From positions 60,935-124,934 of the IMG/VR virus record IMGVR_UViG_3300020413_000003: 64,000 bases of DNA; one strand, written 5' to 3'. The DNA is from a virus (Duplodnaviria; Caudoviricetes). Shown here one piece after another: positions 1-24,438 of the stretch (positions are counted from its first letter, which is position 1; each line of letters opens with the position of its first letter). The translations under genes and the position numbers were made by a program. Under the pieces are notes generated by a model, which had not been told where the DNA came from, did no database searches, and saw only the letters and a list, made by a program, of their open reading frames with translations.

Positions 1-3000
1 AAAGGAGAGGCAGTTTCAACTTACAGTTATGAAAGTATTGGTGGTATTAACTACGGTGTTTTAAAGACTTCAACTCCTCACAACTTAACTGTTGATGATC
101 AGGTTGTTATAGATTACACACCTATAATGAACAACACTAATAAAACTTTTGTTGTTAAACAAATTAAAGGTGTTGAAGAAATTGTTATTGATCAGCAAGG
201 TTCTGGATATAATAGTGAATTACCTCCAACAATCATTCTTGATGGTGATGGAACTGCTGCAGCATTAGAAGCGGTTGTAACATCTGTAGGATCTATTTCT
301 ACAGTTAATATTACTAACTCTGGTCAAAACTATACTACAAACCCAAGAGTTATATTATCACACCCTCAAATCTATAAGAAAGCAGATTATTATGTTTCTA
401 AGATTGCAAATGAGAATTATGTTAAGGTTAATGACGTATTTGTAAATGATGCTAAAGAAATATTCATTTGTGGTAAAACAAAAGACTCTTTTGGATATAC
501 TATTGGATTCTTAGCAAAACTATCTGCTACTGGTGTAAAAGACTGGGAAAAGACAATTAAGAGTACTGATGGACAACAAGAAGTAGAATTTGAGAGATTA
601 TTAATTGATGGACAAGATATTTACGTTGCAGGTCATAATAAACCAAATGCAAGTATCTTAGAGGCATATAACCCTGATGTTGTTCTTTGTAAGTATACAC
701 AGGCAGAAAATGGATTAAGTGCTACTTTACAGTATCAAAAGGCATATGCAGGTATATCTGGTTCTACTCGTTCCGACAATATTAGTGCTATTGCAAAATA
801 CTCTGATACTAGATTTGTTTTAGGTGGTTTCACTAATACTAACTCTGGTAATCCATTTGATGCTTATATTGCTGTTGTAGACACACTTGGTAACTTTGCT
901 GTTAAGAGAAAGATTACTTCTGTAAATGTTTCTGAAAAAGTTACAGATTTACTTGTAAATGGAACTGACATATACTATACATTAGAAATTGCTACAAGTC
1001 CTAATGCAACAAGCGTTGATACAGGTATTGGTAAAGCAACTGTAGGTACTAGTGCAATTAGTCTTGTTTGGACTAAGCAATTAACTAATACACTGTATTC
1101 ATTCATGGATACAAGTCTTACTATCGATGAATTTAGTGAATTATACATTACTGCTACAACAAGACTTAAATCAGACAATACAACAAAAGATGGTTTCTGG
1201 ATTGGTAAATTAGATTCAGATGGTGCTTTCCTTTGGAACTATCGTTATGCAGTAGCTGGTGGATACACTATTAATGTTGCTAAAAGAACTCATATTGATA
1301 TCTTTGGTGATCTTAATATTGCTGTCAACAAATATCTCAATACAAATGGAGAATTAACTGTAGACGTAGTTAAAGTTGGTTATAACGGTATTATTAAGAA
1401 TCAGACAAATAATAAATTTGATCTTAATAATATTGAAGGTGTAACTGCACATAGTTTATATCCTGATAGTTCTGGTGATATTCATGTATTTGGTCAAACT
1501 TCTTGGAATAGAAATGAACTTCTAATACCATTTACCAGTGGTGCAACTACAGATGTTACAGGACACTATACAGCAACCTTTGTAGGAGACGGTAACTCAC
1601 TTCAATATGATACTACTAATGGATTTGCAAAATTACTAGGAAAAGACTCTACTACTCCTAGTACTTGGGTAAATTCAGTTATACAAGTTAATGGATCAGA
1701 TTTAACAACTAAAATGACTGGCGACTGGACTATTGAGTTCATGTTGTTTAAAGATGCTGCTAATAACAATAATACACACTCTCAAACACAACAAACCCTA
1801 ATAGCAATAGGTGATGCAACATTATCTACTGGTGGTCTATGGTTGTATTATGATATTTCATCTGGAGAGATGCAGTTAGTTGTTACTGCAAATGGAACTG
1901 CACTCAACTCTGCATCAGGTTCACTACAATCTACAGTTACAACAATGTTTGCCGATAATACTTGGCAATTTGTTGCACTTACTAAATCTGCAGGTCAGTA
2001 TACAGCATATGTCAACGGTATACAAGTTCTTCAAGGAACTATTGATAATACTGCATTCCAGAATCAAAATCTATACATTGGTAATATTCCTGGTAAGAGT
2101 GGAACTTTAAATCAATTCCGTTCTAATGAACAAGGTCAATACTTTGTTGATAATCTTCGTATTAGAAACAGAGCAGTTGTTCCTACAGTTCCTAATGATG
2201 TTACTAACTATCCTATTGCAGGTGAGTTTAGTGAAGGATTTACATGGACTGATACATCATGGTTCTCTACTTACACTAACAAATATGATTATATCGATTA
2301 TGTTGGTTGGGGTTTAAAAGTTGATAAGAACTCTGATGCTGCAAGAATTGGAACTCAAACTGTTCAAACTAACACACAAGTTGGATTTACTAGAACTGCT
2401 ATTGTATTACAAACAGGTTTACCATTAACTGTTAATAATACTGGATTTGGATTAGCAGAAGCAGGATTCCAAAACTTAGACTTTGATGATGCTGATACAT
2501 CAATGACTCAGGACTCTGATTCATTATCTTATACTCAAGACGTTTGGAGTTCTAGAACTGCTACTGTTCCTTCACCAGGTTCTAAAAAATTAAGAGTTAC
2601 TGCAGTTGTTAAAGACAGATACTTCTTTAAAGTTACACCTACAGTCAAGATTGATAATATTCAAGAACTTACTCTAAATCAGCAATTTGTATTTACTACA
2701 GGTTCAAAATTAGTATTAAGTAGTTCATCAGGATCATTCATTAATAGTGGATACATTATTAGACAAAATAGTGTAGGTAATAAGATATATCTTGCTGTTA
2801 ATAATAATGCTTGGGCAAATGATCTTAATACTGGTGAATTAACTACAGAACAGTTTAATGAGCAAAGCACTTATGGAATTGTAGGTCCTATACCCGCAGA
2901 TGTTAATGAATTAATATACACCTTCCCACTACTAAACAACACTACACCTGGTACATTTGATATAGATCTAAACAATTTTAATCACCCAGAAGGAGGTTCA

Positions 3001-6000
3001 AATAATCTTGATGAATTAACTAACTTTAAACCTTACACTGATGATGATTACTCTATAAGAATTGATGAAGTAGCTGGTGGTTCACCTTTTATTCCTGGAT
3101 CTGTTGTTAATATTAACTCTGGTGATATTAGTTTCAATGCTGCATATACAACTGCATCAATTATCAATTTAACTGGTGTTCTTAAGATTACTTTAGTAGC
3201 AACACTTAAGAAAATTATACAAGTAACTGCTGTTGCTAATAGTGATGAAGTTTATATTGTTACTGCAAATAGTCATTACCTTACTCAAGGTGAAATGGTT
3301 AGTATTGATGGTAACCCATCACAAACTGTTGATAGTGTCGTTTATGATGAATATGATGGTGCTTTCCCAGTTCACACTATTGTAAGTCCTGTTGAATTTA
3401 CATATAAATTACCTTCTGCTGCAATAACTTCACCAGCTACAAGTTCTGGAAGTGTTAATATCTACGTTAAGTCACCTGTTCTTAAAATGTATTATGGACA
3501 TCAATATCTCTTTGATGTTGGTCATTCTTCTATGGCGGGTGGTAACTTATCATTCTCTAAAGATAATCTTTATAAACTGGAATATTCATTCAACTCTATT
3601 GAAAGAGTAGGTACACCTGGTATTACTGGTCAAGGTGTTCCTAACCCTACTGTTAAGTTAAAAGTTGATACTGACATTGTTACTAATATTTCTTACTACT
3701 TTGACCCATCTAGAACAGGTGCTGATTCTCCAGTTATTGCATCTAGTTACTTAGATGTTGTTAATTCACCTTACGTAGGTAATTTCGCAATCACTTCTAC
3801 ATCTGGTGCAACTATTACTCGTGGTGCAGATACCTTTAAATTTGTTCTTGCTAACGAACCAGAGGGTAATGCTGATGTTATCAATACATCTTATAGCACT
3901 AGTTCATTGAAAGCAGTTGGTTCTATAAGTGATATTCGTATTGTTAATGGAGGAGGTTTCTATACTAGACTTCCAGTTGTTACATCTATTCAGTCATCTA
4001 GACAAATAGAAAGAATTCAAATTGATGCACCAGGTACTGAATATGCTGTAGGTGTTTACAATAGTGTTCCTATTGCAGGTGATGGAGAAGGTGGATTTGT
4101 TTCTATTACTGTAGCAGACGGAACTGATGATGATGGAGTAACGATTCCTGGTCAAATACAGTCTGTTGTTGTTACATCACCAGGTAAAGGATATACTACT
4201 GCAAGTATTGATGTTGAATCTATATCGGGTATTCTTGGAGCAGGTTTAACAGGTTCTGGTGTTGATTTGAATGTTGTTATTCCTCCTGCAGGAACTGGTG
4301 CTTCTATCTTTACCAAAGGAACTAAAGTTGGTAAGATTAAGAAATTACAGAACAACAACTTTGGATATGATTATCCTCATGACTATACTTTACGTCCTGA
4401 GATTTCATTCCCAATTAACGCACAGTTAACATCCACAAGTATACTTGATAGTATTACAGTTACAGATCCAGGTTCTGGATATTCACAAGCACCAACCGTT
4501 GTTATCACAGGTGGTGGTGGACAAAATGCAACTGCTGAAGCATTCATTAAGAATGGTCGTTTAGATGATATTCTTGTTAAAGATCCAGGATCAGGTTACT
4601 CTTCTGCTCCTACTGTTGCATTAAGATCTTCTTTCAACTATGTTGTTAACCTTGACTTAGGATTACTACAATTTGCTTTCCCACATGGTATTGTGAATGG
4701 TTCTGAGGTTACATTAACAGTTACTGATACTGGTGATGGTGCTGAGTTCCCATTATCAGCAGGTGCTGTTGGTCGTTTGAATTCTACTAACACATATTAT
4801 GCTATTGCTGGTACTGCAAACTCACTAGAAGAAAACCAATTAAAGATTGCTATTACTGCTGCTAACGCTGCATTAGGTGACTCTTTATCATTTGTTAACG
4901 CAGGAACAGGTCGTCAAACAATATTAACTGAATCATTCGGTGGTGCAGCAACTGCTAACGTTATTACTTCTACATTCTTAGAAGGTGAACTTGTTTATCA
5001 AGGAGATACTTTAGATGCTGCAACTGCTAGTGGATATGTTTCTACTAACCAAGGTTGGCAGGTAGGACCTAGAATTATTAAGATTGTTGATTACACTGGA
5101 AACTTTAATGCTAACGAAAGAATAACAGGTGTTATTTCTAAGTCTTCTGGTATTATAAGTGATCTTAAGATTGCTCGTGGTGTTCTTGAAATTGGTTCTA
5201 TCACTAAGACAACTGGTCAGTTCATTGATGATATTGGTAAACCATCTGAAATTATTCAGAAAATTCAAGATAGTTACTATTATCAGGACTTCTCATATGC
5301 TGTTAAGTCTGCTGTTTCTATTGGTGAGTGGAAAGAGATATTACTTAAGAACGTTCACCCTGCATCATTCAAAGTATTCGGTGAATTAAATCTGGCTGAA
5401 TATGGTCAAATTCCTAACAAAGAAACTGATTTCCAGATAACCAAAGCTGTTGAATTAGCAAGAGAAGCAATTGTACCTAACATTCAGAGTTTCTCTCTAG
5501 TTGAACCAGTCTACTCACAGTTTAATAACTCAGAAGTATTATTCAGACAGAAGAGATTGACATCTTCTGAGAACATTTTGACTTCTGTTGTTCAGCGTAT
5601 TGATGATATATCAAATCAATTTGATGGTGTTAAAACACAGTTCCAATTAAAAGTTAATGGTGACAACGTAGTTGCTAATGCTAATCAGTTAATGATCATC
5701 TTAAATGGTGTTGCTCAAACTCCTGAGACATCATTTAATATTCAAGGTGATTCTATTGTATTCAGTCAACCACCACAACCACCTGCAAGTATTAAGTATG
5801 TAAACGTTACTATTCAAGAGATTACTATATCTACTCTTGAATTTACTAATATCAGTGGAATATTCCCACTCAAGGGAAATACAATGGCTGGACAGACTTC
5901 TTTAGCAAGATTTACTGTTACAGCTGTTGTTGGTAATTCAATTTTCGGTTTCTTTGTAGAAGGAACTGCATTTACAGTTGGTGAATTGGTAAGTAACAGT

Positions 6001-9000
6001 GCTACTGGATTTATTGCAAACTATGCTTCAGTATCAACTGTTTCAAATCTTGGATTGTTTGTATTTGGAGAGCAGGTTTCAAACCTTACTGGAGAGACTG
6101 CTAAAGTTGAAGCAATTAACTTAGCAGGTGGTTCTGAAGCTCCACTTGGTCAATTACGTTATGGTATAGGTCCTTCAACTGCATCAGTTGAAATTGTAGC
6201 AGCAAAGATACTTTCTACAGATGCTGATACACCTCCTGCAGCAGGAACATTTACTGTAGGTGGTAACTATCAGATTGGTTCTGAAATTGTAAATGTAACT
6301 AACGTTACTACTAACAATGATTCAGTTGTATTAGAAATAACTAGAGGTGAATTAGGTACTACAGCAGCAACACAGGCAGAAGATGGTCCTGTATATGCAA
6401 CAACAGTTCTTGTTAATGACAAGTTAACTTTAAGTAAAACTACTGGAACATATCAGTCTACACCTGGTTTATTTGATCTTGCTCTTGATGATGTTATTAT
6501 TGGTGCTCAGTCTGGTGTAGTTGCAAGATTGACTGCTACATCAACATATCAAGATCCTACAACTAATGAGTTTATCGGTCAGGTTAATATTTCAGAAGGA
6601 TCTTCATTCTTTGGATTACTATTCAACAGAGTTACATCAATTACATACCCAAATATTGTTCTAGATGATATTTCATTATCAACAATTAGTGTTGTTGACT
6701 ATACAGACTACGTAACAGATATTGATTCTCAATTCCCTGCTAACGAATTTATAAGTCAAATTGTAATTCCTTACGATAATGCTTCTGGATCATTATCTAT
6801 AGGTGAGAAGATTAGGAACTATAAATTTGATTATGGTAATAATGTTGGAACATTTAATAGTGGTGAAGCTGGTAAGTCTAGAAAACTATCATTTAAAGAT
6901 AAGATAGGAACTGGTCTATTCTCCACAGGCGATACAATAAGAACTAGAGATACTAAAGCAGAAGTAATTGGATTTAATTTCTCAGGTAATACAATATATC
7001 TTGGTAAGATTGGTAGATCATTAAGAGGTGGTGGTGATTATCATGTATTCAACTTCTCTGGTAGTGCTCAATTAGATACTTCAATTAAGAAATTTGGAGA
7101 TTCTTCATTACAACTTGATCTAGCAACAAGTGATTATATTCAAATTCCTGCATCATCTGAATTTACTCGTGGTACAGGTGATTACACTATTGAATTCTGG
7201 ATTCGTCTAGATGCAGTATCTTTAGCAGATACTAAGACTTTAGTTGATATGAGAACAAGTGCTACTGAAGTTGCACTTAGAATTTACTTAGAAGCAGCAC
7301 AAGTTCGTGTTAATGTTAATGGTTCAGATATAGCAACCTCTGGTGGAAATGCTCTAAACAATAATGTTTGGTATCATCTTGTAATTCAAAGAACTGGAAC
7401 TACTGTTAAGATTATATCTAATGGAGTTGAGATTGGAACTGGAACAGATAGTGGTAATTATACCTTAGATAGACCAATTAGAATTGGTGCAGATTTATCT
7501 GGTCTTAATTCTATAACTGCTCATATTGATGAGTTTAGATATTCTACTGTTGCACGTTATGCAACAATTCCATTTACTTCTCCTAATGGTATTTTCCAAG
7601 GAGATACTGATACTAAAGTATTATGCCACTTTGATGGTGCTGATGGAGCAACTAAGACTGAAGATTGGTCTGGTGGTGAATCATTTACTAAGGGTGAATA
7701 TGTTAATAACGATTCTATATTAACAACAAATAGTTCTAATCCAACTGCTGCACCTGCAGGATTTAATATTAAGAGTCACAGATATATTAACGCTGCAGAT
7801 TTAATGTTAATGAACAAGGAATATCTTGCTCAAGAAACAGTTTATATTATGAAGGAAGTATTCCCTGCTCATAGTGTTAAGGGTAGTGAAGTTGATTGTG
7901 AAGATGATGTAAGAGATGTTGTCGATTCTATAGTAGAAGATTTACGTAATGGTAGTAATCATCATATGTGGAAAGCAGCTTCATACTATGTTAATAGAGA
8001 AGTTAATCCAATTCAAATTGTAAACGTAGAAGATGATGTCTCTATGACAGTCTATGTTTATGAAATATTAGATAAAATTGCTAAGTATATTGTTAATAAT
8101 GTTCCTTGGAGTACTCAAGGTGATCATGGTTTAACTCAGAAGTATGACACTACTATTACATTTGATGGTTACACATCTCAAACATTAACTAAGTTTACAC
8201 CAACAGCAATCGACTATCATCCATCAATGGGTGACATGGAAATAACAGCTGCAAGTCATGGACTCGCGGCCCCTAGAACTATAACAGCATCAGGGTCGGG
8301 ATACACTGCTACCACTGGTGTTTTGACTATTGAATCTGTTGGGCACTCACTAGAAACTGGGGACAGAATTAAGTTTGAGCCTAATTCTATTACCATGACT
8401 TGTACTTGTGATGGTAATGTAGTATCACAGAGTTATCCTAGAGATGATGATCCAGCAAATCAAGGCTGGTTAGAAGTATCGAAGATTGATAATGATAACT
8501 TTAGTGTAAATGTTGGAACATCTCCTACAGTAAACTTTACTGCAACTTCAGCAGATTATAATAGTAATACTGGTTTCTTAACTATGGACATTGGTGACAA
8601 TGATCTAAGACCAGGAAGTAAATACACTGTTGAAAGTGCAGCATATAATCCTACTAGTGGTGTAATGACAGTAGGTATTGGTAACGATCAGTATAATGTT
8701 ATTGATGCTGATTATAGTCCTACAAGTGGAGATTTAGAAATCTTTGTTAGTTCACATAACTTAAAAACAGGACAGAAAGTTAAGATTGCTAATGATGGTC
8801 TTACATTCAGATGTTCTCAAGATGACTATGCTACTGATCACCCATATCCAAGAGCAACTGACCCTGCACGTAATACAGCATTAGAAGTTCTTCATGTAAC
8901 TGATGAATCATTCACAGTAAACGTTGGTAAATCTCCTATAGTTGAATTTGATGTTTCCAATGCAACATTCAATCCTAATACAGGTGATATGGAGTTGACT

Positions 9001-12000
9001 ATTGGAAATCATAGTTTGTCTTCAGGTACTTCTATTAGAATAGCAACTCAAAGTATTGGATTTACATGCACATATGGTGCAGGTGTTCACTACTACCCAA
9101 GACCTCTAATTGATGTGCATGTTCCAACTGATGCATCATATAATCCAACAACAGGTGTAGTAACATTCACTGTTAATCAGGGACATGGAATGAAGAATGG
9201 TGATAAGGTTAAGATTCCTGATTACTCACTTTCATTCACATGTGATAAAGATAATAATGCAACTACTCACAGATATCCTAGACCTTATGATCCTATTAGT
9301 GATAAATGGATTGAAATAAGTAATGTTCAAACAACATCAATCGATGTTCAAGTATTAGATACTGCTCCTTCCACAAATACATCTACTCATACTTTTGTAA
9401 GTTTTACAGATGTTATATCACAGAAACGTGATAAGTCATTTGAACAATCTATTCCAATTACTGCTACAACTGGAACAACTATTACTATTAATGTTGGTGT
9501 TTCAAGTAATACAACAACTCATACATATTCAACTTCTAAAGCAGGTGCTGTAATTACTGGTGGTAATTATAAGCATAAGTTTAGATCTGCACTTGATAAC
9601 GCTATAACAGTAGAGCATGGCTTATATGTTGGTGATAGAGTCATGTTCGATAGAGACTCTCTAACATTTACATGTCTTGAAGATAGTGGTGCTACTGAAC
9701 ACACATACCCAAGAATTACAGATCCTTACTATAATAAGTGGTTACCTATTTCTAATGTAACTCATACAACATTCGATGTTCAAGTACTAAGTTCTACACC
9801 TTCTACTAACCAAACTGCTCACACATTTGTTCGTGCTAAAGTTAATGGTCTAACAAGATCTGGTGAAACACTAAAACTTGCTAAAGACGCTCTATCATTT
9901 ACATGCTCACAGGATAATGATTCTACAGTTCATTCTTATCCTAGAGTCGATGATTCAGTTTATAATACCGCTATTCCAATTTGGAGTAATGGTAACACTA
10001 GAATGACTGCTGAAGGTGCAAGTTATAATACTTCAACTGGACTATTGACTATTAATATACTAAATCATGGTTTAACAGTTGGCACAGAACTTAGATTAGA
10101 AAATAATTCTCTTGTCTTTACTTGTGCTAAAGATGGTAATAAAACAGAGCATTCATATCCAAGACGTAAAGATCCATACGCTGCTAGATGGTTAAGAATT
10201 AAAGCAGTTAGTGATCATACATTTACAGTATTTGTTGGTGAAGCAAGTTCTACAGGTCAGTATGCACATACATTTGTAAGAGCAGTTAAGGATGGTATTG
10301 TTAAGCGTGATAATACTGTTACTGTTAACGTTGGTGCTACTCCAACTAAGGCATATACTCCATCTGCTGCAACTTATAATGCTAGTACTGGTGCTTTAGA
10401 ATTAAATGTCGGAACACATAGTTATCCTGCTCCAACACAACATACACCAACTGATGTTGCTTATAACCCTGTTAGTGGTGTAATGACTCTGACTATTGCA
10501 GGTCATAACTTCTCTAATGGTGAGAAAATTAAGATTGCTGATAATGGTATTAAATTAAGTTGTCCTTACGGTGGTGCAACTGGAACTGCTGCACAGAAAG
10601 ATTATCCACGTTCAACTGACCCAGTTAGCAACAAATGGATTCCAATATTCAACGTAACTACAGATACTTTTGATGTTCAAGTTTTAGATTCAATTCCTTC
10701 TACTAACGTTGATACTCATACATTTGTAAGTGCAGTTAATAACTGTGTTAGCAAGGCAAATTACACTGTTAAACTTGCTCCTGATTCATTACTAATGACA
10801 TGTGATATGGATACCAATGCTACTAAGCATGTATATCCAAGATCTAATGTTGCTACTCATACTCCATCTACAGGTACAAGTTACAACCCAGTAACAGGTG
10901 CTCTTACAGTTTCAATTCCTACTGAATCATTTACTGCTTCTGCTGCAAATTATAATGTCACATCAGGTGCATGTGTATTAACAATATCACAGAATGCAGG
11001 ATCATATAATGTTACTGGTGCAACTTACTCACCTTCTGTTGGAACTTTAGTTCTTACACTTGGAACTCATAGTCTAACAACTAGTGACAGAATTAAAATT
11101 ACTCCAGAATCACTTAAGTTTACTTGTGATTATAATAACGATAATAATACAACAATTCACCCTTATCCTCGTGCTGCAGGTGCTTACAACTCAACAAATT
11201 CAAAAGCAGATTATGCTTATGATACATGGTTAGACATTAGTGCAGTTACAGGAACAACAATCACTGTTAACGTTAACGGTGGTCAAGGTGCTATTACTGA
11301 CATTAGTAATCATACATTTGTTGGTGCACTTGATGGTGCAGTTCAAGTTGGTCATGGTATAGTACCTGGCAACAAAGTTAAACTTGCTCCTAACTCACTA
11401 ACATTTACTTGCACATTAGATGGCAACACTGCACAGAAATCTTATCCTAGATCAACAGGTGCTAATACAACAAGTGGTGCTGACTATGCTTATGATAAGT
11501 GGCTCAGAGTTATGGATGTTGGTGACAATACTATAACTGTTAACTTGAATGGTGGTCAAGGTGCTATCTCAGATACATCAGCACATACATTCGTTTCAGC
11601 TACTACAAATGGTATTACCCTTGGACATGGTATGGTTGCTGGTACACCTATTAAAATCAAAGATGGTGGCGTAACATTCAGATGTGCACATGATAATAAT
11701 GCTACTTTACATCCATATCCAAGGTCTACTGACCCTGCAAGTGATAAGTGGTTGTTTATCAAGAATGTATCTGATACTCAGTTTGAAGTTGATATTTTAC
11801 AAGGAACAACTCCTACAAATACAACAACTCATACCTATGCAGGTTCTCTTGATAATTGTATCATTCAAGGAGATCCACTTGTTGCTCAGGCAATTCCTAT
11901 TGATGCAGTAACAGGAAATACTATTACTATCAATGCTTTAGATGGATATACGCCTTCATTCACACCAAATCATACTTTAGATTCTGTAGCAACATCTCAG

Positions 12001-15000
12001 TTTACACCAACTAATGCAGTTTATAATGGAACTACAGGTCTAATGACCATAACAGTTTTAACTGCTAACTTCCAACCTTCTACTGTTGCTTATAATGCGA
12101 TAACTGGTGAGATGCAAATGACTATTGGAACTCATAGTTTGGCAGTTGGAGAAGAAATATTAATCGCTCCTAATTCACTAACATTTACTTGTGATTATAA
12201 TGGAGATGGAAATACTACAAATAAGACATATCCTAGAGCAACAGGTGCTGCAACTCCTAGCGGTGCAGACTTTGCTTACAATAATCAATTAGTAATTACA
12301 GACACAACCAACACCACTATTACTGTTAATGTTAATGGTGGCGGTGGAGCAATTACTGATACAACCAACCATGTATTTGTATCAGCATTAGCAGATGCAG
12401 TCAGTGTTTCACATGGAATGAAGAACGGTGAAAAAATTAAGATTGCTGATAATGGTATTACATTTACTTGTACTCATGATAGTAATGCTACAAACCATCC
12501 ATATCCAAGAGTAACTGATCCTGCTAGTGGTAGATGGTTAGATGTTCATAACGTCACGAATACTACTTTCGATGTTCAAGTATTAGATGAAATTCCTTCT
12601 ACAAATACTACAACTCATACATTTGTTTCTGCTACAACTAATGCGATTACAAGAGCAATAGTTTCAACTGGTGGTAACTATAAGCATAAGTTTATATCTG
12701 GTCTTACAAATGGTGTTAGAACTGGTGGTGACTATACTCATACATTTGTTTCTGCTACTTCTAACGGTATACATGTTGCAGGTGATTCAATTTACATTGA
12801 TAATAATTCACTAAGATTTACTTGTTCTCAAGATAATCATGAAACACAACATGATTATCCACGTGCCACTGATCCTGCAGCTAAGCATGTAATGGAAGTT
12901 AAGACTAAGGATGATAATAGATTCGTAGTTAACGTTGGCAAGTCTCCACAAGACAAACGTTATGATCACTTATTTGTTAGTGGTGATGCTAATTCTATTA
13001 CTAAGTCTAAGTATGTAATTACAAATTGTTCTGACGTTTATACAACTACAAACAACTTAATTGATATTCTTAGAGATACAATCACTCAGGCTGCTTTACC
13101 ATCTCCTGTAGATCATCTTGCATCTATTACTGATCTTCTTCCAGTAGATGAATTTGTTGGTGGAACAATTCATTCATATCTAGAAGTACCATTCAAAGTT
13201 ACATACGAAGATGATGCTCAGGAAATGGTATACACAGATAGAATCGATGTATTCAGTCGTTACAGATTCCGTGATGCTGCTAATTTAATTCGTCAGAACA
13301 CAGGTGCTATTGTAGATAAAGCATCCTATGATATGTTAATTCGCTACCCTGCTCTTTATCAGGATATGCCTAGAAACAATAATGGTGCATCTACAGATGG
13401 AATTGAGCGTTGTAAGACTGACCTTACACAGGTTTGTGGTGGACTTGCTAATGATATTGAAAATGGTGGTAATAAGAACGTTGTTGCTGCTGCAGGATTC
13501 TACATTGGTCAATTTAATGAAATACAACATATTAGATTACAGTTACTACAATCAATTTACGTTCATAATCGTTTAGTATTCTACTTAAAGCAAGCAATAG
13601 ATGGAAGTTTAACTACTGATAATACAGAAAATCTTATCGTTGGAGATTGGGGTATAACCAATGATGATAGTGTAACAACTTATGATGTATACAATGCATC
13701 TTATGACGCAGGAACTGGTGATTTGGTAATGACTCTTGCATCAAACACTGGAACATTTAGTGTTAGTGGTGCAGTTTATAATCCAACATCAGGTGATCTA
13801 ACACTTACAATCGGAACCCATACTTTAACAACTAATGATAAGGTTGGAATTGCTGAGGAATCATTAGTATTCACTTGTGATTATAATGGTAATGGTAATC
13901 AAACTCAGAAGAGATATCCTAGATCATTTGGTGCTGGTACAACAAATGGTGCTGACTATGCATATAATCAATTCCTTGATATTACTCAGGTAAATCAGAG
14001 TGGTGGAACAATCACTGTTAACGTTAACGGTGGTCAGGGTGCAATTACAGATACCACAACTCATAACTTTGTTGTTACTCCATCTGCTACAAATGCAGTT
14101 ACTGTTGGTCATGGATTTACTGCAGGAGATAGTTTACAAATTGGTAATGAAGCATTGACATTCACATGTTCAATGGATGGTAACGTTTCTAATAAGACAT
14201 ATCCTCGTGCAACAGATCCTGCATATGGTAAGGCACTTACAATTACAAGTGCTACTACAACAACTGTAACTGTTAATGTAGGAACTACTCCAGAAGTTAA
14301 GTATACTCCAACATTCGCAACATACACTGCTACAACTGGTGTGTTAGTTCTTACTATTGGCAACCACAATTTAGAGGTTGGTCAACCAGTTAAGATTAAT
14401 CAAGGTGCATTGAAGTTTACTTGTGCAATGGATGGAAATGAGTCTATTAAACCTTATCCAAGAACTAGTGATCCATTCTACAACAAACCTATTGATATTA
14501 CTGCAACTACAGCAGATACTATTCAGTTAAACGTTGGGCAGAGTCCAATAGTTTTACATACAGTTTCTAATGCTACTTACGATCCTACTACAGGTGTAAT
14601 GGTATTGACAATAGGATCTCACACTTTGACTGCTGGTACTAGCATTAAACTTGCTACTGAGTCATTAGTCTTTACTTGCACATTAGATGGTAATACAATT
14701 CAGAAATCATATCCTCGTGCTACTACTGCTAATACAGGAACTGGTGCTGACTATGCATACGATACTGCAATCAATATTGATTCTGCAGATACCGCAGCAG
14801 GAACTATTACTATCAACGTAAATGGTGGACAAGGTGCTATATCTGATACATCAGCACATACATTTGTTTCTGCTAATGCAGGTGCTGTAAGATCTGGTGG
14901 TGATTATGTTCATACATTCCATTCTGCAGATACAGAATCTATAATTGCTGGTGGTGAATATACTCACGTATGGGCAGGTGGTACTGCTACAGATGCAGTT

Positions 15001-18000
15001 AGTGTTATCGGTGATTGTGCAGATGTTAAGAGTAATATCGAATCATTAATCAATACAGTTAATGATATTATCGCACCTACAGGTCTAGATTATGATACTG
15101 CAGGTAACAGACTTTACTTTAACAGAGAACTTCTTGCATCAGATGTAACTTCTAGAATGTTAACTGAGTTTACATATCAAGCAGGTCCTACAACATACTT
15201 TGCATTCCAATTTGATGGAAATAATATATCAGCAGCAGACTTCCAAGCAGATGTTGAGGTATTGATTCAAAATCTAATATCTGATTTACAAACAGGTGGT
15301 AATAATAGTTCTATTAGAGCACTTCAAGAAGTGTATCTTAATTCTGATGGAACTCTTCATAGAATTGAAGATATGCTTATGCCAACTGTTTATGGTATGG
15401 AAGTTCTTAAGGAAGCAGGTAGAGAAGCAATTAGAAATAACGTATTCAATTCATCAGAAAATATTCCTTTCGGTGGATATGTAACAAACGCTGCTCAAGC
15501 AGCATTTAGAGATGATTTAGAGACTGTAGATATTGATCAAGTAATTGGAGATTGGAATAATCTTCTTGATCATGTAATTGAATTCTTCTCACCTGGCAAG
15601 AAAGAGGCTAGAAATGGTATGAAGAATATTCTTTATAATGTAAACTATTATAAGAATGAACTAAACAACCTTGTTAATACTCAGTTTGGTAATGGTGCTT
15701 GGGTCTATAATGATTTCGTTGATGAGTTAGTTGGAAATATAGTTCAAGACTCCATCACAACTCCTATAGATCATAAGACTACAGCAAGAAGAATAACTGT
15801 TACAAGTGTGAGTGGAGAATTTATAGTTGGTGAAGTTGTAACTGCTAATGGTGGTGGATACGCTCAGATTCTTGAATGGGATAGTAAAGACAGACATCTA
15901 TATGTCGGACCTTTCCTTAGTGGTACAATTTCTGCAGGTGAGACTCTTACTGGTGGAACTCAAGGTGGTGGAACTATTCCAACTGGAGGAGTTGGTATTG
16001 CATTTGATTGGTATACACAACCATCAAACGTTGAAATTCTTAGAAATGCAAGATTAATTAGTTCTACTGTTCAAGATCAATTAATAGGTGAAAACGTTGG
16101 TTATAATTATCCAGAAGATTTAAGTAGTGGTAATACACTTACCGAAATAACCATAGGTGCTGATAGTGCTGTTGCACCTGATAACGCAATTAGTGCTGAT
16201 AAGATTATTGCTTCATCTACTGTTGGTGAACATTTAATACACAGAAATTATAGTTTAAATGCATTTGAAACATTTGACGGTGGCACAGTTAAGTTTGACT
16301 CATCAACAGAGACATTTGATACTGGACAAGTAGGAACTACTGAATCACAGCAATTTACTTATTCTGTATTCTTAAAGGCAGGTGAGTATAGTAAAGTTCG
16401 TTTCGAGATGGCTCTTGATAGAGATACTACTGAGAAACAGCAATTGTTCTATGATATTGATTTAACAGATGGAAGTGTAGGTAGTATCTTCCAACCTCAA
16501 GGTGGTCTTACAGTAGATGGAACTGGAGTAATTCCTTATGGTGGAGGATGGTATAGAGCATACGGAACAATTACATGTTCATTCGGTTTCTCTCAACTCC
16601 GTCAACAAATTCAAATTAAGAATGCTACTGGTCAAACTAGTTTTGCAGGTAATGCATCTGATGGTCTTTATGCATGGGGTCTAAAACTTACTAAAGGAAC
16701 TATCGATCCTTATGCTGCTACAACTGGAGATGTATTCTACGCTGATACAGAATATAATATTAAGTCATATACAATCGATAGATTGGAAGAATGGATATAT
16801 GATGCATTGAAAGATCAACTTCTTAATCCTTCTCCTGAGTCAGGTTTTGTACCGTTCTTCAGTGATAGTGCATCTACTTATTATCATCCAGATTCAATTC
16901 AAAGATTGGTAAGATATAGTTTAGAAATAATTCGTAATCAATTATTAAATAGCACTTACTATACTGACATTGTTGTTCAAAATGCAATAGGTCTTCCAAC
17001 TAAAGATTATGGAACATTTGATTTCCCTGTTGCTCTTGCAGGTGGTCTTGCAGGTGCTGACTACTTGTATGGTTTAGAAAGTGGATCATATGCTGAACTA
17101 GAAAAAGTTACTATGAACGAAGGTGAAATTGTTCAAGTATATCAAAGATTCCGTATTGATGCTAATATTGTTGATGGTCCTTACTTCATGAATGAAGTTG
17201 TTCAAAAACAAGGAGATTCAACAGTCACAGGTGTTGTTTATGCATTCTATGAAGATGAAAACTTTAAGTATCTTGATGTTGCAGTTACTGGTGGAACATG
17301 GACAGTATTAGATTATGTTGTTGGTGCAACTAACTCAACAACTGCACAGATTAATGCTATTGAAGATAGAATACAAATCACTGGTCTTGAAGGAGAATTT
17401 GTTAATAATATTCCATTCAAGGGATATGACACAGGTGAAACTGCAATTCCAACTGGATTCTTAAAAGCACAAGCTGCTGTTCTTGACAATAGTGGTGGTA
17501 AATTAACTGTTGATACTGAGTCTCTAATAGGTAGTTTTGAAACATCTGCTGTAATATATCCTGAGCAATCTAAGTTATTCATGGATGTTGCCAGATATGA
17601 AGGGTTAGATGTATTAATCGGTTATAGAATTTCTTCTGCAGGACATACAAGAATTGGTATTACAATTCAGAATAATAAAAATGTATTTGTAGTAGGTAAT
17701 AAACTTAATAAGATTACTAATGGCATCATTGATATAAACAACTATGGTTATATTACTGAAGTTGATCTTGATAATAACATTCTATACTACATCTTAGCAG
17801 CAGGAAATATTACTAATGGTGATCAAGTTGGTGATTTTGGTGTTGCTCCTGATCCACTCAATCCATTAGGATATGCAGTAATTAATACTAAGTTAGATAT
17901 TGCAGGAGCTGCTAGTGCAGTAATTCAAGACATCAAAGATGTTGGTGTTAACAAACGATTCTATCTAACAAATGTAACAGGAACATTTAGTGGTAGAGAT

Positions 18001-19018: not shown

Positions 19019-20245
19019 ATGGCTAAACAAACGATAGGTCTTGGATCTGCTGCTAACGATAATACAGGTGACACTCTTCGAGCAGGTGGTGACAAGGTAA
19101 ACGACAATTTTAGTGAGATATACACTGCTCTTGGGAACGGAAGTAACCTGACGGTAACTCTTGCAAACCCTGCTGTTAATCAGGTGTTGCGTTATAATGG
19201 TACAACCTTTATTCCTTCTGACTACACACAATTAACTTCTGCTCTTGACGTAAATAGTAATTCTATAATTTCTTCTTCAAACGGTAATATATCTATTGCT
19301 CCTAATGGCACTGGAAATGTATCTATATCTAACGGAAGTGTTACTAATACATTTAATGGCACAGATGGAACTATAGATCTTCCAACAATAATAAAATATA
19401 AAAACGAATATACTTCTCTTGGTGCATCTCCTCTACCTGCAACATATCCTGGTTATTTCTTTACTGTAGATGGTGATGATAATCCATATGTAAACATTAA
19501 TATAACTGCAGGTGGTGTTGGTGATGCTAGAGCAAAAGTATTAACAGAGTATTCTACTCTTGGTTTAGTTAGTGATGTAGATGTAGTATCAAGTGCTCCT
19601 ACTAATGGACAAGTTTTAAAATGGAATACTTCAAGTAGTAAGTGGTTACCTGCTGATGATATAGCAGGTGCAGGATCACAGAATATATGGGAGTCTATTG
19701 TTGCTGATACAGGAACAACTACTGCTGATTCTGACACTGATTCTTTAACAATATCTGGTGGAACAGATATCGCAACTACTATTACGGGTGATACAGTAAC
19801 AATCAATTATACTGGAACTCCTGTAACAACATTTGCTGCTTTAACTGATTCTGATTTATCAGGAATAGTTAAAGGTGATTCAATTTATTGGAATAATACT
19901 GACTGGGTTGTATCTAGAAGTCCAGTTATTTGGTGGAACTTGAACTCTAGTGGTGCATCTGATTACACCTTCTCTGGTCCTGGTTTTACTGGTGCTGTAA
20001 ATGACCCAACTCTTTATGTTTATAGAGGGTTTACTTACATCTTTGATAACTCAGTTCAAGGTGGTGCTCATCCATTCAGAATTCAAAGTACACAGGGTTT
20101 AACTGGAACTCCATATGTGGCAGGTCAGTCAGGTAGTGGATCTAATATTCTTTATTGGACGGTTCCGTTAGATGCTCCTGCAACTCTTTATTATCAATGT
20201 ACACTTCATTCTGCCATGCAAGGCACAATCAACGTAGCGGTATAG
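19019..20245 (+). CDS. gp9: Baseplate wedge tail-fibre connector (gp9-like) with C-terminal cupredoxin-like domain
   Basis: N-terminus MAKQTIGLGSAANDNTGDTLRAGGDKVNDNFSEIY is the T4 gp9/gp10 N-terminal motif; C-terminus HPFRIQ...YYQCTLHSAMQGTI. Confidence 0.75.
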   Translation: MAKQTIGLGSAANDNTGDTLRAGGDKVNDNFSEIYTALGNGSNLTVTLANPAVNQVLRYNGTTFIPSDYTQLTSALDVNSNSIISSSNGNISIAPNGTGNVSISNGSVTNTFNGTDGTIDLPTIIKYKNEYTSLGASPLPATYPGYFFTVDGDDNPYVNINITAGGVGDARAKVLTEYSTLGLVSDVDVVSSAPTNGQVLKWNTSSSKWLPADDIAGAGSQNIWESIVADTGTTTADSDTDSLTISGGTDIATTITGDTVTINYTGTPVTTFAALTDSDLSGIVKGDSIYWNNTDWVVSRSPVIWWNLNSSGASDYTFSGPGFTGAVNDPTLYVYRGFTYIFDNSVQGGAHPFRIQSTQGLTGTPYVAGQSGSGSNILYWTVPLDAPATLYYQCTLHSAMQGTINVAV

Positions 20246-20250
20246 AATAA

Positions 20251-23200
20251 ATGGCAAGAACGGTTCCTGGTTCTGGTGCTGTCATTGAACCAATTTTCGA
20301 TGAGATCTTTGGAGTTCGTGCGGTAGAAGTCACAAACGGTGGAAGTGGATACTCTCAAGCAGATCCACCTCGTTTGGTAATATCTGGTTGTGGAACCCCA
20401 GATGTAGAAGCGTTATTATATCCTATTATTGATTCTGAATCAGGAAAAATAATACATGTTAGAGTTCTTACTAGAGGTAGAGGATATGATCCGTTAAGAC
20501 TTCAGATCATTCCAGAACAAGAAACTCCTAATGTTGTAACTTCATTTGATTTTAAAAGAATATTTCAAGCACATCCTAATAGTCCTACTACAGCAACATT
20601 TACAAGTGATAGACTAAGATTAGTATCAGATAATCATCCTAAACCTTCTCAGCATATTTTATCAGAAAGAGAACCTAGTGGTTCTTCAACAGTTGTAGAT
20701 AGATCTTTTGATCAGACATTTATCTATAGAGGTGGTAAAGATGTACCTCATCCAGATGCTGATAATAGACAATATCAAGGTGATAAAGCCATGGGTATCA
20801 TGGCAAATGGTGTTTTGCTTCATACACCTGAGTGGGGACAAGATGGAAGTCCACCACCAGGATTTGCTATTGATGCTGTAAAGTATCCTTATATTAAAAA
20901 CAATAATGCATATGATGCAGTAATTGACAATCAAGTTTACTACTATCAAACAAATAAACTTACAGACGAGTGGTCTTTAGATAACGGAGTATTTGATTGG
21001 GGTAGAATAAGACAGTTTGTTTGGCAAGTTAAAACAGAGCATGATAATATTTTAATTGAATTAAGTAATTTAGATCAAACCATAGGTTCAATTGAAGTCG
21101 GTAGAATTGTTGACTGTATTTCATCTACTGCAAAAGGTGAAGTAGCAAAAATTGTTAAAGATAGTTTAGGTAATCCAACAAAAATATATTTAAGAACTCT
21201 TACTGGTGTTGCTTTCCAAGAAAATGATGTTTGTCTAGGTGCTAATGGATTCCAATTTAAAGTATCAGGTATCCCAACTCTATTCCCCAATGGAATATTC
21301 TATATTGAATTTGGAGAGGAAGCACATGAGTTTGGTGCATTTACACCTGGTCAATTTTATTTTGCTCCAGAAGGAATTAAAGTTCAAAGAAATTATTTAA
21401 TAATTTGGGATCAAAGTGATCCAACAAATAATAGTGGTGGAATGCAGCATCCAATGAGATTCAGCACAACTGCTGATGGAACTTTGAATGGTGGAACTCT
21501 TTATTACAATAGTACTGGTGTTACACAAGCACCTGCTACTGACTATGAAAATGAATATCAACCATTATTCTTGATGAATGCTGATGAGAATAATAGAATA
21601 TATTATTTCTGTGCTAATCATCGTTACATGTCTGGGTATCAGGGCGATGAAGGTTATATGGAACTTGCGTCAGATGTAGATCCTGACCCAATGGTCAATA
21701 CATATTACTTTAAAGATTATTATCAATCAAATGCTAATGATCCAAATACCATTGATTATAGTAGACATGTAGATGGTCATTCTAAAATCTTAGGTATGTC
21801 CTTTGATGGATATCCTATCTACGGTCCTTGGGGTTATAATTCTAGTGGTGCAGTTGCTAGAGAAGTATCAGGACATAGATTAAAAACTACTGCTGAGTTA
21901 TCAGGTAATCGTCCTCAAGTTAATACAGTTTCTAATGTAACATATACAGTTACTGTATCAAATAATTTATTTAATTTTGATGGTAGTAGACCTGCATTTT
22001 TAACATTAGATAGAGGTAAGACATATATCTTTAATCAAGATGATTCTTCAAATGATAGTCTATTCTTATTTGTTGGAACATCTGATGATGGATGGCATGT
22101 AGGTGCACCTCCTGTTATTGGAGATACCACATATCTTTTATCAGGTAATCATGTTAAGTATTATATTGATGGTGCTGAGACTACTTACAATACTTATATT
22201 TCTGCTTTCAATACAGCATCACAAAGAGAAGTTAGATTCCATGTTCCTGTAAATGCTCCTATAGCATTATACCTCTTTGCATATTCACAATCAGGTGTAG
22301 GAATAAGATGTGTTGTTGAGGGATATGTACTTGGAGATTTGACTGATGATTATATTCCTGATTCAACTGTTGGAACTCTTGATGCTTATAATGGTAAGTT
22401 TAGTCCTACTCCAGAGTATCCTAATGGAACTTATGCATATTATATGACTGAGGATAGTTCTTCGGTTCCAACTTATCCTTATGCTATAGGAGATGCATTC
22501 TATGGAACTCCTTTATTTGAAGGTGATACCGTTCCTGATCAAGTAGAAATATTCCCAAGCGGTGCTACTGGCGATGTTGTTTTAAATGCTAACGGTCAAA
22601 TATCATACGTTAGAATGAGTCAGTTTGGTGATAATTATTTTGGTCCTGCACAAGCAAAGATTTTAGGTGGTCAAGGAACAGGTGCATTAGCAAGTCCGAT
22701 TGTACAAACAGTTACTGGTTTATCATTACTAGCAACAGGTAGAGAGTATGCTACTCCTCCAACACTTATATTTGAAGGTGGAGGTGGTGGTGTAGGTGCT
22801 GAAGGTGCTGCTGAAATTGATACCTTTGGTAAAGTTACTGGAATTAATATTGTTGACGAAGGTGAATTCTATCAGGAACCTCCTTATATTTTAATCACAG
22901 GTGGTGGTGGTATTGGTGCTAAAGCAGTTGCTAGAATTGATCAAGGTGTAATAGTTGGTATTGATATTACAGATTCTGGTTCTGGTTATATTAATCCACC
23001 AAATATTGTATTTACTAAACTTGTAAACTTAAAACGTAAGACAAGAGCAAGACAGTCTTACAACTCTACCGCAATTTATTTAACAGGTCTTGTAAAAGAT
23101 TTAGCAGCGTCAGACACAGAAATATTTACTGACACAACTACAGGTTTTCCTGGTTCTGGATCTCTTATTGTTAATACTGAAACCATTACTTACACTGGTA

Positions 23201-24420: not shown

Positions 24421-24430
24421 TCGGAAAGGA

Positions 24431-24438
24431 CATAAATA
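24431..24438 (+). promoter_or_regulatory. Late promoter (CATAAATA) for gp8
   Basis: Intergenic, followed by AGGAGG and the gp8 ATG at 24464. Confidence 0.7.

What the first reader, a model, noticed from the sequence alone, without database searches (positions are those of the whole stretch)
8194..13005. Recursively nested (Russian-doll), branched tree of 15 homologous domains inside the giant gp7
Seen in sequence: a ~100-aa domain has ordered parts a (T.A.Y.P.TG.M.LT), b (H.L..G), c (IKI...L.FTC..D....H.YPR), d (DP....W..I), e (F.VNVG) and f (H.FVSA..N.I). The copies are not tandem. Each is interrupted at a loop by whole further copies and then resumes where it stopped, like balanced brackets: D1[D2[D3[D4[D5[D6[D7]]]] [D8] [D9[D10] [D11[D12[D13]]] [D14[D15]]]]]]. 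Approximate openings are D1 8194, D2 8275, D3 8527, D4 8617, D5 8689, D6 8938, D7 9106-9426 (intact), D8 9994, D9 10345, D10 10435, D11 10846, D12 10924, D13 10999, D14 11995 and D15 12064. Orphan closing strands stack up at 9559 (GGNYKHKF, D5), 12670 (GGNYKHKF, D3) and 12724 (GGDYTHTF, D2). D1 resumes its c-f parts at 12778, ~4.5 kb after opening. All 15 openings, 15 YPR motifs and 15 closings pair up, depth reaches 7, and D3 and D9 each carry three inserts at different loops. Inference: one polypeptide folds into a dendritic, multivalent appendage on the baseplate. Linear nested insertion is established for T4 gp18, but I know of no described branching, self-similar tree of one domain family.
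Basis: partly seen in the sequence, partly recalled or inferred. Interest (0 to 1): 0.92.

Follow-up and report, generated by a model that had tools for sequence, protein, structure and literature searches.

The report
Self-nested beta-barrel tree in cyanophage gp7
A giant baseplate protein of a marine cyanobacterial virus carries 15 copies of one small beta-barrel domain inserted into each other's loops up to seven deep, so the chain forms a branched tree of domains, a design otherwise described mainly in cyanobacterial RNA polymerase.

Summary
My segmentation uses every residue of aa 2690-4296 of the ORF. It yields 15 units of 100-117 aa that all match a profile of contiguous copies full length. 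The 28 pieces form a valid bracket order; 0 of 1,000,000 shuffles do.

Relatives show whole-domain insertions. D4 and D11 are split here but contiguous in the P-SSM4 clade.

AlphaFold2 folds the window's D14[D15] at pLDDT 90.0. It folds a 61%-identical relative's whole 11-domain tree at pLDDT 78.8, pTM 0.63. Structure alignments show split domains closing into single barrels.

Two corrections:
- D14[D15] is most simply a sibling of D9, not its child.
- A branching, recursive self-insertion tree is already in print, for the Si3 insert of cyanobacterial RNA polymerase.

The fold here looks different, and the tree is larger and deeper. A four-domain second tree follows at 13669-15006.

This scan already noted the same architecture in at least 14 other genomes. 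Function, probably surface adhesion, is inferred only.

The parts
1..18993 (+). Giant gp7-like virion/baseplate wedge ORF. It is open at the window's 5' end; 6288 aa from the first ATG at 127.
   Evidence: PHROG 701, 18802 and 2885. The P-SSM4 orthologue is annotated gp7.
8194..13014 (+). Tree 1, 15 domains, 1607 aa (aa 2690-4296): D1[D2[D3[D4[D5[D6[D7]]]][D8][D9[D10][D11[D12[D13]]]][D14[D15]]]]]
8194..13014 (+). D1 (depth 1): 8194-8274 plus 12778-13014, split in the a|b loop.
   Evidence: HMM 2-30 and 27-113. Reconstituted unit E 7.1e-24.
8275..12777 (+). D2 (depth 2): 8275-8526 plus closing f strand 12721-12777, split in the e|f loop.
   Evidence: The orthologous E2 closes in the model (model range 27/28..1075).
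8527..12720 (+). D3 (depth 3): 8527-8619, 9856-9999, 10306-10344 and 12667-12720. Inserts lie in the a|b, d|e and e|f loops.
8620..9855 (+). D4 (depth 4): 8620-8691 plus 9613-9855, split in the a|b loop by D5-D7.
   Evidence: Contiguous in the P-SSM4 clade.
8692..9612 (+). D5 (depth 5): 8692-8937 plus closing strand 9556-9612, split in the e|f loop.
8938..9555 (+). D6 (depth 6): 8938-9105 plus 9424-9555, split after YPR in the c|d loop.
   Evidence: HMM 2-58 and 65-112.
9106..9423 (+). D7 (depth 7), contiguous.
   Evidence: HMM 1-112, E 1.2e-41.
10000..10305 (+). D8 (depth 4), contiguous, in D3's d|e hairpin.
10345..12000 (+). D9 (depth 4): 10345-10437, 10756-10845 and 11869-12000. Inserts lie in the a|b and c|d loops.
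   Evidence: HMM 2-25, 28-62 and 67-104.
10438..10755 (+). D10 (depth 5), contiguous.
10846..11868 (+). D11 (depth 5): 10846-10929 plus 11623-11868, split in the a|b loop by D12[D13].
   Evidence: Contiguous in the P-SSM4 clade.
10930..11622 (+). D12 (depth 6): 10930-11001 plus 11350-11622.
   Evidence: The opening piece was missed by the 7-copy HMM and found by eye and by the 19-copy HMM.
11002..11349 (+). D13 (depth 7), contiguous.
12001..12666 (+). D14 (depth 4): 12001-12072 plus 12409-12666, holding contiguous D15 (12073-12408, depth 5).
   Evidence: AlphaFold2 pLDDT 90.0, pTM 0.76. Structure alignments spanning model residues 1..222 with 73-78 aligned residues.
13669..15006 (+). D16 is 13669-13755, 14107-14292 and 14950-15006. 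D17 is 13756-14106. D18 is 14293-14547 and 14893-14949. D19 is 14548-14892.
19019..25996 (+). Downstream baseplate genes: gp9-like connector (19019-20245) and wedge subunits (20251-24420, 24464-25996).
   Evidence: PHROG 677, 708 and 438. Same order in P-SSM4.

Best explanation
What it is. Nt 8194-13014 encode a true recursive self-insertion array. The unit is a roughly 105-residue, nine-strand beta-barrel domain with no Pfam family and no solved relative by sequence. It accepts whole further copies of itself in four inter-strand loops:
- beta2/beta3 (a|b)
- beta5/beta6, just after YPR (c|d)
- the beta6/beta7 hairpin (d|e)
- beta7/beta8 (e|f, between the VNVG.SP and GG.Y.H.F motifs)

The domain's two ends lie close together, so each inserted copy buds from its host's loop and the host's remaining strands return to complete the host barrel. 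Repeating this gives one polypeptide that folds as a branched tree of 15 barrels, 7 levels deep, anchored between helical segments of a gp7-like baseplate wedge protein.

How it evolves. The tree has a conserved trunk (D1-D3, D8-D10). It grows or shrinks by whole domains at a few nodes in different phage lineages.

Shown here: the sequence grammar, the positional orthology with unsplit domains in relatives, and confident predicted barrels for split copies.

Inferred, about 40% likely: the tree is an exposed, multivalent host-surface (glycan) binding or spacing appendage of the baseplate, and gain or loss of domains tunes adsorption.
For: Sequence.
- There are 15 YPR motifs in the region and none outside the two trees.
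- HMM pieces have complementary coordinates.
- The segmentation tiles the region exactly, and all 12 split units score full length at E <= 2.3e-21.
- 0 of 1,000,000 shuffled orders of the pieces are valid.

Evolution.
- 8 IMG/VR contigs at 87-97% identity keep the identical 15-domain tree in an open frame.
- Reconstituted units best match the domain at the same tree position in P-SSM4: D2-E2 76%, D3-E3 71%, D10-E7 68%, D4-E4 66%, D9-E6 63%.
- The two halves of D4 and of D11 each independently best-hit the contiguous E4 and E8.
- An independent MAFFT alignment places contiguous E4 on aa 2832-2850 plus 3161-3242, and E8 on aa 3581-3606 plus 3834-3913.
- A third clade (L091/L092/L127) has 17 domains and depth 8; a fourth has about 8 domains.
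- In 104 hit-bearing ORFs of the loci held at that point, only 441 of 1903 domain pieces were whole copies.

Structure (predictions).
- Window D14[D15] with a 21-row same-topology alignment gave pLDDT 90.0 and pTM 0.76. The outer 24-residue opening hairpin scored 92.
- In VIA-align, rows such as 1hze_A, 2glw and 1i8d_A align 73-78 residues of a ~90-residue single barrel over model range 1..222. That is the split outer domain.
- The whole 11-domain tree of relative L027 (61% identical to the window row) gave pLDDT 78.8 and pTM 0.63. Its outermost halves, 1,045 residues apart, scored 83-89, and all orphan f strands were predicted as strands at 71-89.
- On that model, VIA-align rows span 27/28..1075 with 77-80 aligned residues (E2 plus its closer about 940 residues away) and 718..1038 with 79 aligned (E9).
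- All four insertion sites fall between predicted strands.

Two-chain test. I paired window aa 2690-2800 with aa 4199-4296. The result was weak support: score 0.35 (runs 0.38, 0.35, 0.35), best of 3 controls 0.00. The mark was reached by 58 of 80 solved complexes and 2 of 110 mismatched pairs, but at 0.60 or under by only 7 of those 80 and by both mismatches that passed. The runs agree in at least 93% of contacts and the partner's pLDDT is at least 64. The counts hold only roughly, because my own alignments were used.

Context. Baseplate wedge families match the same ORF and its neighbours. All 320 phage records with the domain are cyanophages.
Against: - No coordinates or contact maps were available. 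Closure in 3D rests on pLDDT, secondary structure and the first and last residues of structure alignments.
- Among window segments, only D14[D15] was folded. D4-D7 and D9-D13 were not, because clean same-topology alignments could not be made.
- The whole-tree model is of a relative, not of the window.
- No structure-alignment row spanned E1 end to end.
- The complex test is only weak support.
- Strand exchange between neighbouring barrels, as reported for Si3, is not excluded.
- The function has no direct evidence. The fold matches are middling (Z 7.3-7.8), and the tool warns that Z under 8 may reflect only a common arrangement.
- Per-domain conservation among close relatives (80-94%) shows no sharp trunk-versus-leaf contrast.
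Confidence: 0.85

Rival explanations
1. The pieces are not nested in 3D. Runs of opening hairpins (a-a-a) and runs of closing strands (f-f-f) form their own local sheets or pair with sequence-adjacent neighbours, so the array behaves as tandem or circularly permuted repeats.
For: Up to three openings (nt 8527-8760) and three closings (nt 12500-12777) lie side by side in sequence. No contact map could be inspected.
Against: - The bracket order is exact, with complementary profile coordinates.
- Relatives carry the same domains unsplit at the same positions.
- In the models, structure alignments to single ~90-residue barrels span the split halves: 1..222, 27/28..1075 and 718..1038.
- The fragments are confident strands.
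Confidence: 0.04
2. The tree is nested but interdigitated. As reported for Si3, some neighbouring barrels exchange strands, so that 'one fragment set = one barrel' is only approximately true, and the tree is a rigid fused body rather than beads on loops.
For: [quoted passage not shown] A conserved 5-residue tail after D14 has no assigned barrel.
Against: Every reconstituted unit aligns full length to contiguous copies with nothing left over. The structure-alignment rows fit unswapped barrels.
Confidence: 0.12
3. On function: the tree is a passive structural element, not a receptor-binding device. It would serve as bulk, a spacer or a stabiliser of an enlarged cyanophage baseplate, possibly held by a metal site.
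For: - The trunk domains are the most conserved (D2 and D3, 94% among close relatives) and the leaves are only mildly more variable.
- One Cys is present in all 19 units, one His in all 19, another His in 18 of 19, and one Asp in most (19-row alignment).
- The DNA copies are old, at 60-83% identity.
Against: - The number of domains changes between clades at the same nodes (15, 11, 17, about 8). That is more typical of host-interaction parts.
- The same domain sits in proteins annotated as tail fibre (P-HM1; BFVD rows).
- One of the best fold matches is the barrel inserted in phage phi92 endosialidase (Z 6.9-7.8). From memory, that barrel is a sugar-binding module in the related endosialidase of phage K1F.
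Confidence: 0.3

Closest known systems
Si3 insertion in the trigger loop of cyanobacterial RNA polymerase beta' (RpoC2): recursively inserted SBHM / HABAS domains
   Same: One small beta domain family is inserted into itself recursively, with several discontinuous domains and nodes that carry more than one insert. The reports are 8 SBHMs with 4 discontinuous (PMC10895346, passages), nine added HABAS domains inserted into other HABAS domains (PMC11515920, passages), and a 6-level recursion of 8-10 domains with bifurcating nodes (PMC13114784, passages).
   Different: - Here the host is a virion protein of a phage, not an enzyme.
- There are 15 barrels and depth 7 in one tree, 19 barrels in the protein, and 17 barrels with depth 8 in a related clade.
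- Four distinct insertion loops are used.
- The fold's best structural matches are the E1 FCCH barrel, the phi92 endosialidase barrel and FNR-type barrels. No RNA polymerase chain is among the 50 rows listed in either search, which leaves SBHM kinship unsettled.
- Domain number varies between close lineages.
gp7 of Prochlorococcus phage P-SSM4 and its clade (orthologue)
   Same: - It is the same giant ORF upstream of the gp9-like connector.
- It has the same trunk: E1[E2[E3[..][E5][E6[E7][E8]][E9[E10]..]]].
- Positional identities to the window's domains are 48-76%.
   Different: It has 11 domains and depth 5. E4 and E8 are contiguous where the window has D4[D5[D6[D7]]] and D11[D12[D13]]. E9 carries an extra insert (E11) that D14 lacks.
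Single insertion domains of beta-barrel type: E1 FCCH domain, phi92 endosialidase barrel, P22-like coat I-domain
   Same: These are small closed barrels that sit as inserts in a host domain. They are the best or listed structural matches: 9mc4_A Z 7.3, rmsd 2.5, 77 aligned; 4hiz_A Z 6.9-7.8; 6mnt Z 5.0. There is a weak Pfam E1_FCCH hit, and the nearest named Atlas cluster is a viral one carrying E1_FCCH, score 0.92.
   Different: Each is a one-level insertion into an unrelated host. The Pfam score of 17.8 is below the 29.5 cut-off, and Z under 8 may reflect only a common arrangement.
T4 gp18 tail sheath
   Same: Domains nested inside one another in a phage tail protein.
   Different: As recalled, it is a short linear nest of unlike domains. 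Here one family is nested in itself and branches.

Membership tests
Recursive same-family domain insertion (Si3-type architecture) | Many copies of one domain family in one chain | tested here: met
   19 units of 100-117 aa align full length.
Recursive same-family domain insertion (Si3-type architecture) | Copies are interrupted by whole copies and resume at the point of interruption | tested here: met
   Complementary HMM coordinates. Exact tiling. 0 of 1,000,000 shuffles valid.
Recursive same-family domain insertion (Si3-type architecture) | Several levels of recursion, and nodes with more than one insert | tested here: met
   Depth 7. D3 carries inserts in three loops and D9 in two.
Recursive same-family domain insertion (Si3-type architecture) | Split copies re-form one domain in 3D | tested here: met
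   Predictions only. Window D14[D15]. E2 and E9 of a relative's whole tree. D4-D7 and D9-D13 of the window were not folded.
Recursive same-family domain insertion (Si3-type architecture) | The repeated fold is SBHM/HABAS (CATH 2.40.50.100) | tested here: inconclusive
   No RNA polymerase chain among the 50 rows listed. No direct comparison with an Si3 structure was possible.
T4-type gp7 baseplate wedge protein | Gene lies in the baseplate wedge cluster | tested here: met
   It is followed by a gp9-like connector and wedge subunits. Same order in P-SSM4, where the orthologue is annotated gp7.
T4-type gp7 baseplate wedge protein | Sequence match to baseplate wedge families | tested here: met
   PHROG 2885, 13163, 32294 and 438 'baseplate wedge subunit' on parts outside the tree. 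These names are annotations, not tests.
T4-type gp7 baseplate wedge protein | Homology to T4 gp7 itself, and presence in the baseplate | not tested
   No comparison with T4 gp7 was run. Virion location cannot be tested with these tools.
Pfam PF16190 E1_FCCH | Score at or above Pfam's gathering cut-off | tested here: not met
   17.8 bits against a cut-off of 29.5, E 0.0034, over 22 residues.
Pfam PF16190 E1_FCCH | Same barrel fold | tested here: inconclusive
   VIA-align Z 7.3-7.7, rmsd 2.5-2.8, 76-77 aligned. Atlas named cluster score 0.92. Z under 8 may be a common arrangement.
T4 gp18-type nested insertion | Linear nest of unrelated domains | tested here: not met
   Here all units are one family and the nest branches. 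The gp18 architecture itself is recalled, not checked.

The most novel reading that the evidence does not exclude
Cyanomyophage gp7 trees are the largest and deepest natural case of a domain inserted recursively into itself. This window has 15 barrels at 7 levels, and a sister clade has 17 at 8. The published survey's most complex case has 6 levels. On this reading the trees act as evolvable, multivalent glycan-binding dendrimers on the baseplate, and gain or loss of whole barrels at a few hot loops retunes adsorption to Prochlorococcus and Synechococcus surfaces.
Probability: 0.3. Interest if true: 0.85.

Novelty: new variant of a known kind. Interest (0 to 1): 0.7.

Why it matters
For protein evolution. 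The finding shows that recursive self-insertion, so far described in depth for one cellular enzyme, also builds a large part of a virus particle protein. It does so with a different-looking small barrel, four permissive loops and greater depth. Related phages differ by whole inserted domains at the same nodes, so the family is a natural series for studying how domain insertion arises and how a host domain still folds when its halves are up to 1,500 residues apart.

For phage biology. It points to an uncharacterised, lineage-variable appendage on the baseplate of the most abundant marine cyanophages. That appendage is a candidate for host recognition.

For annotation. The domain has no Pfam family, and split copies defeat linear domain callers.

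Tried and rejected
Folding window D4-D7. I built three alignments (A3, A4, A5) and rejected all of them.
- Beyond the 7 close relatives, only L013 and L092/L093 share the D5[D6[D7]] module.
- MAFFT put the opening hairpin of unsplit E4-type rows onto D7.
- MAFFT piled all partial rows onto D7.

I therefore spent the second fold on the relative's whole tree, where every column is covered by four clades. Window D4-D7, D9-D13 and tree 2 were never folded.

Searches for a known fold or family.
- The search for related loci with the 7-copy alignment failed for lack of a conserved stretch.
- Profile search of PDB sequences: best E 0.43, nothing usable.
- Foldseek against the PDB: no match at E <= 0.001.

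SBHM hypothesis. My first guess was that the barrel is an SBHM like those of Si3. No RNA polymerase chain appears among the 50 rows listed in either VIA-align search. This is an absence only, not a refutation.

Recent copy-paste between branches. Direct DNA repeats of 40 nt or more are only 60-83% identical.

Trunk versus leaf conservation. There is no sharp contrast.

Automatic parsing. The bracket parser fails on many divergent loci because of weak pieces and a further break point near profile position 44-48. Their depths as printed there are not reliable and are not used.

Literature.
- (cyanophage, baseplate, gp7, cryo-EM): 138 papers, 20 listed.
- (nested domain, domain insertion, Russian doll and similar): 73 papers, 25 listed.
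- (cyanomyovirus, virion structural protein, nested and similar): 46 papers, 15 listed.
- None of the listed titles or abstract starts describes this architecture.
- PMC13114784 has 0 occurrences of 'phage' or 'viral' in its main text.
- PMC9910659 (passages) says nothing about this domain.
- Supplements are closed. The survey's tables could list deeper nests than the six levels named in its text.

Full report
CONTEXT. The window is the structural module of a T4-like cyanomyophage, with about 35% G+C.
- One frame is open from base 1 to 18993 (+), 6288 aa from the first ATG, so the gene starts upstream of the window.
- It is followed by a gp9-like connector and baseplate wedge subunits. Terminase and tail sheath lie further on.
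- PHROG families on the ORF are 'virion structural protein', 'baseplate wedge subunit' and 'tail fiber protein'.
- The nearest named DNA is gp7 of P-SSM4, P-SSM3 and P-RSM3, at 74-78% identity over 5-7% of the query.
- In P-SSM4 the orthologue (57144-79082) is annotated gp7 and has the same neighbours.

THE OBSERVATION.
- I built a 114-position HMM from the 7 copies that are contiguous (D7, D8, D10, D13, D15, D17, D19). In the region it finds pieces whose profile coordinates are complementary and obey a stack: the last domain opened is the first closed, and it resumes at the coordinate where it stopped.
- Reading the translation, I cut aa 2690-4296 into 33 segments belonging to 15 domains. The segments tile the region with nothing left over.
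- The reconstituted units are 100-117 aa. All 12 split units (10 in tree 1, 2 in tree 2) hit the 7-copy HMM in one stretch covering profile positions 2-4 to 104-113, at E <= 2.3e-21.
- The 28 tokens of tree 1 form a valid nested order. 0 of 1,000,000 random orders of the same tokens do. The small second tree is valid in 16,407 of 200,000 shuffles, so by itself it is weak.

THE TREE. The parse is D1[D2[D3[D4[D5[D6[D7]]]][D8][D9[D10][D11[D12[D13]]]][D14[D15]]]]], depth 7.
- Insertion sites are the a|b loop (D1, D3, D4, D9, D11, D12, D14), the c|d loop after YPR (D6, D9), the d|e hairpin (D3) and the e|f loop (D2, D3, D5).
- D9's last piece already holds its f strand, and only two orphan closers follow D14. 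I therefore place D14[D15] beside D9 in D3's e|f loop, not inside D9.
- A second tree, D16[D17][D18[D19]], follows at nt 13669-15006 with the same grammar.
- A helical unit recurs before tree 1, between the trees and after tree 2, at 25% identity, E 1e-7 and 5e-6.

RELATIVES.
- The domain occurs in 320 of 50,697 phage records, all cyanophages and all under 60% identical.
- It occurs in 655 of 1.84 billion protein-cluster representatives at E <= 0.001 (475 at 1e-10, 198 at 1e-30), most with several matched stretches.
- It has no Pfam family and no solved relative by sequence.
- Eight IMG/VR contigs at 87-97% identity keep exactly the same 15-domain tree.

Orthologous outer shells define four versions of the tree:

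| Clade | Tree length (aa) | Domains | Depth |
|---|---|---|---|
| Window clade | 1607 | 15 | 7 |
| P-SSM4 clade | 1153 | 11 | 5 |
| L091/L092/L127 | 1800 | 17 | 8 |
| L137/L139/L173 | 844 | about 8 | not determined |

- Reconstituted window domains best match the P-SSM4 domain at the same tree position (D2-E2 76%, D3-E3 71%, D10-E7 68%, D4-E4 66%, D9-E6 63%, D15-E10 56%, D8-E5 54%, D11-E8 52%, D1-E1 48%). D14 does not: it best matches E7 at 61% against 45% for E9. D15's 56% is not a unique match either: E10 is also the best P-SSM4 match of five other window units (D12 and D19 60%, D13 and D17 51%, D18 45%).
- D4 and D11 are split in the window but contiguous in P-SSM4. Each half best-hits the same contiguous domain.
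- The tool's own MAFFT alignment of whole trees maps contiguous E4 onto window aa 2832-2850 plus 3161-3242, and E8 onto aa 3581-3606 plus 3834-3913. In L127 it shows further inserts in E4 and E11.
- The lineages therefore differ by whole domains inserted into, or lost from, loops of otherwise orthologous domains.
- In the hit-bearing ORFs of the loci then held, 441 of 1903 pieces were whole copies. Split copies are the rule in this family.
- DNA copies within the window are 60-83% identical, so the duplications are old.

STRUCTURE PREDICTION.
- Job 1 was window D14[D15] (222 aa) with 21 natural rows of the same a|b topology. It gave pLDDT 90.0 and pTM 0.76, with the outer opening hairpin at 92.
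- Each unit has nine predicted strands, and the four insertion sites fall between strands.
- VIA-align against 48,161 chains gave best Z 7.3 (Uba1 FCCH, rmsd 2.5, 77 aligned) and 6.9 (phi92 endosialidase barrel) for the inner copy.
- It also gave many rows in which 73-78 residues of a single ~90-residue barrel span model residues 1..222. That is the outer copy made from residues 1-24 plus 137-222.
- Job 2 was the whole 11-domain tree of relative L027 (1153 aa) with 20 rows from four clades, including the window. It gave pLDDT 78.8 and pTM 0.63, with 18 residues under 50.
- In job 2 the outermost halves scored 83-89, and the three orphan closers were strands at 71-89.
- VIA-align rows on job 2 span 27/28..1075 with 77-80 aligned residues (E2 with its closer about 940 residues away) and 718..1038 with 79 aligned (E9). 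No row spanned E1.
- I had no coordinates, so these ranges are indirect evidence.

TWO-CHAIN TEST. I paired the window's outer openings (aa 2690-2800: a1 plus D2 a-e) with the outer closings (aa 4199-4296: f2 plus D1 b-f).
- The result was weak support: 0.35 against a best control of 0.00.
- The mark was reached by 58 of 80 solved complexes and 2 of 110 mismatched pairs. At 0.60 or under it was reached by only 7 of those 80 and by both mismatches that passed.
- Contacts agree in at least 93% between runs, and the partner's pLDDT is at least 64.
- The counts hold only roughly, because my own alignments were used.

WHAT FOLD.
- The fold is a small closed barrel.
- The Pfam hit to E1_FCCH is below the cut-off.
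- The nearest named Atlas cluster is a viral one carrying E1_FCCH, score 0.92.
- The best structural matches are the FCCH barrel, the endosialidase barrel and FNR, riboflavin-synthase and EF-Tu-domain-2 type barrels at Z 5-7.8.
- These are middling scores. I call it FCCH-like in shape, not a member.
- BFVD holds 33 viral models at E <= 0.001. The named ones are mostly cyanophage proteins, labelled baseplate wedge initiator, structural, tail or tail fibre.

WHAT IS KNOWN.
- Recursive self-insertion with branching is in print for Si3 of cyanobacterial RNA polymerase.
- The reports are 8 SBHMs with 4 discontinuous (PMC10895346, passages), nine HABAS domains inserted into other HABAS domains, sometimes strand-swapped (PMC11515920, passages), and a 6-level recursion with bifurcating nodes, given as the survey's complex case (PMC13114784, passages).
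- The kind is therefore known. This is a larger, deeper instance in a phage virion protein with a different-looking barrel.
- My searches listed no paper describing it. Supplements were closed.
- This scan has already noted the same architecture in at least 14 other genomes. Those are unchecked AI notes and add no independent support.

FUNCTION (inferred). A tree of barrels on a baseplate wedge protein, variable in domain number between lineages and found also in tail-fibre-like proteins, fits an exposed adhesion or spacing appendage. I put that at about 40%. A passive structural role is the main rival.

Noticed in passing
   Followed up: yes
window 7777-8070, 13261-13575, 15052-15438: A helical unit recurs before tree 1, between the trees and after tree 2 (25% identity, E 1e-7 and 5e-6). 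Each tree is also followed by a similar Cys-x-Asp-Val helix start.
   Followed up: partly
every domain of window 8194-15006: One Cys (FTC motif) and the f-strand His are present in all 19 units. The b-loop His is present in 18 of 19, and one Asp (DP motif) in most (19-row alignment). A lone conserved Cys in an extracellular domain suggests a metal site rather than a disulfide.
   Followed up: no
L091, L092, L127 (e.g. L127:1544-6946): A sister clade has an 1800-aa orthologous tree with 17 domains and depth 8. It has extra inserts in the D4-equivalent and the E11-equivalent.
   Followed up: partly
L068 (ORF aa 496-703 and 715-1030): Host domains whose e|f loop holds about 110-215 residues that the domain HMM does not match. 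The same loop may also accept other kinds of domains.
   Followed up: no
window 12652-12666: A 5-residue tail after D14, conserved as a similar tail after E9 in P-SSM4, belongs to no barrel in my parse. It bears on whether D14 is a sibling or a child of D9.
   Followed up: no
window 7126-7557 and about 1840-2103: Laminin_G_3 / concanavalin-A-like lectin domain (E 1.1e-24), and a weaker Laminin_G_2 match, upstream in the same ORF.
   Followed up: no
window 1-126: The giant frame is open to the window's 5' end. I did not check this.
   Followed up: no
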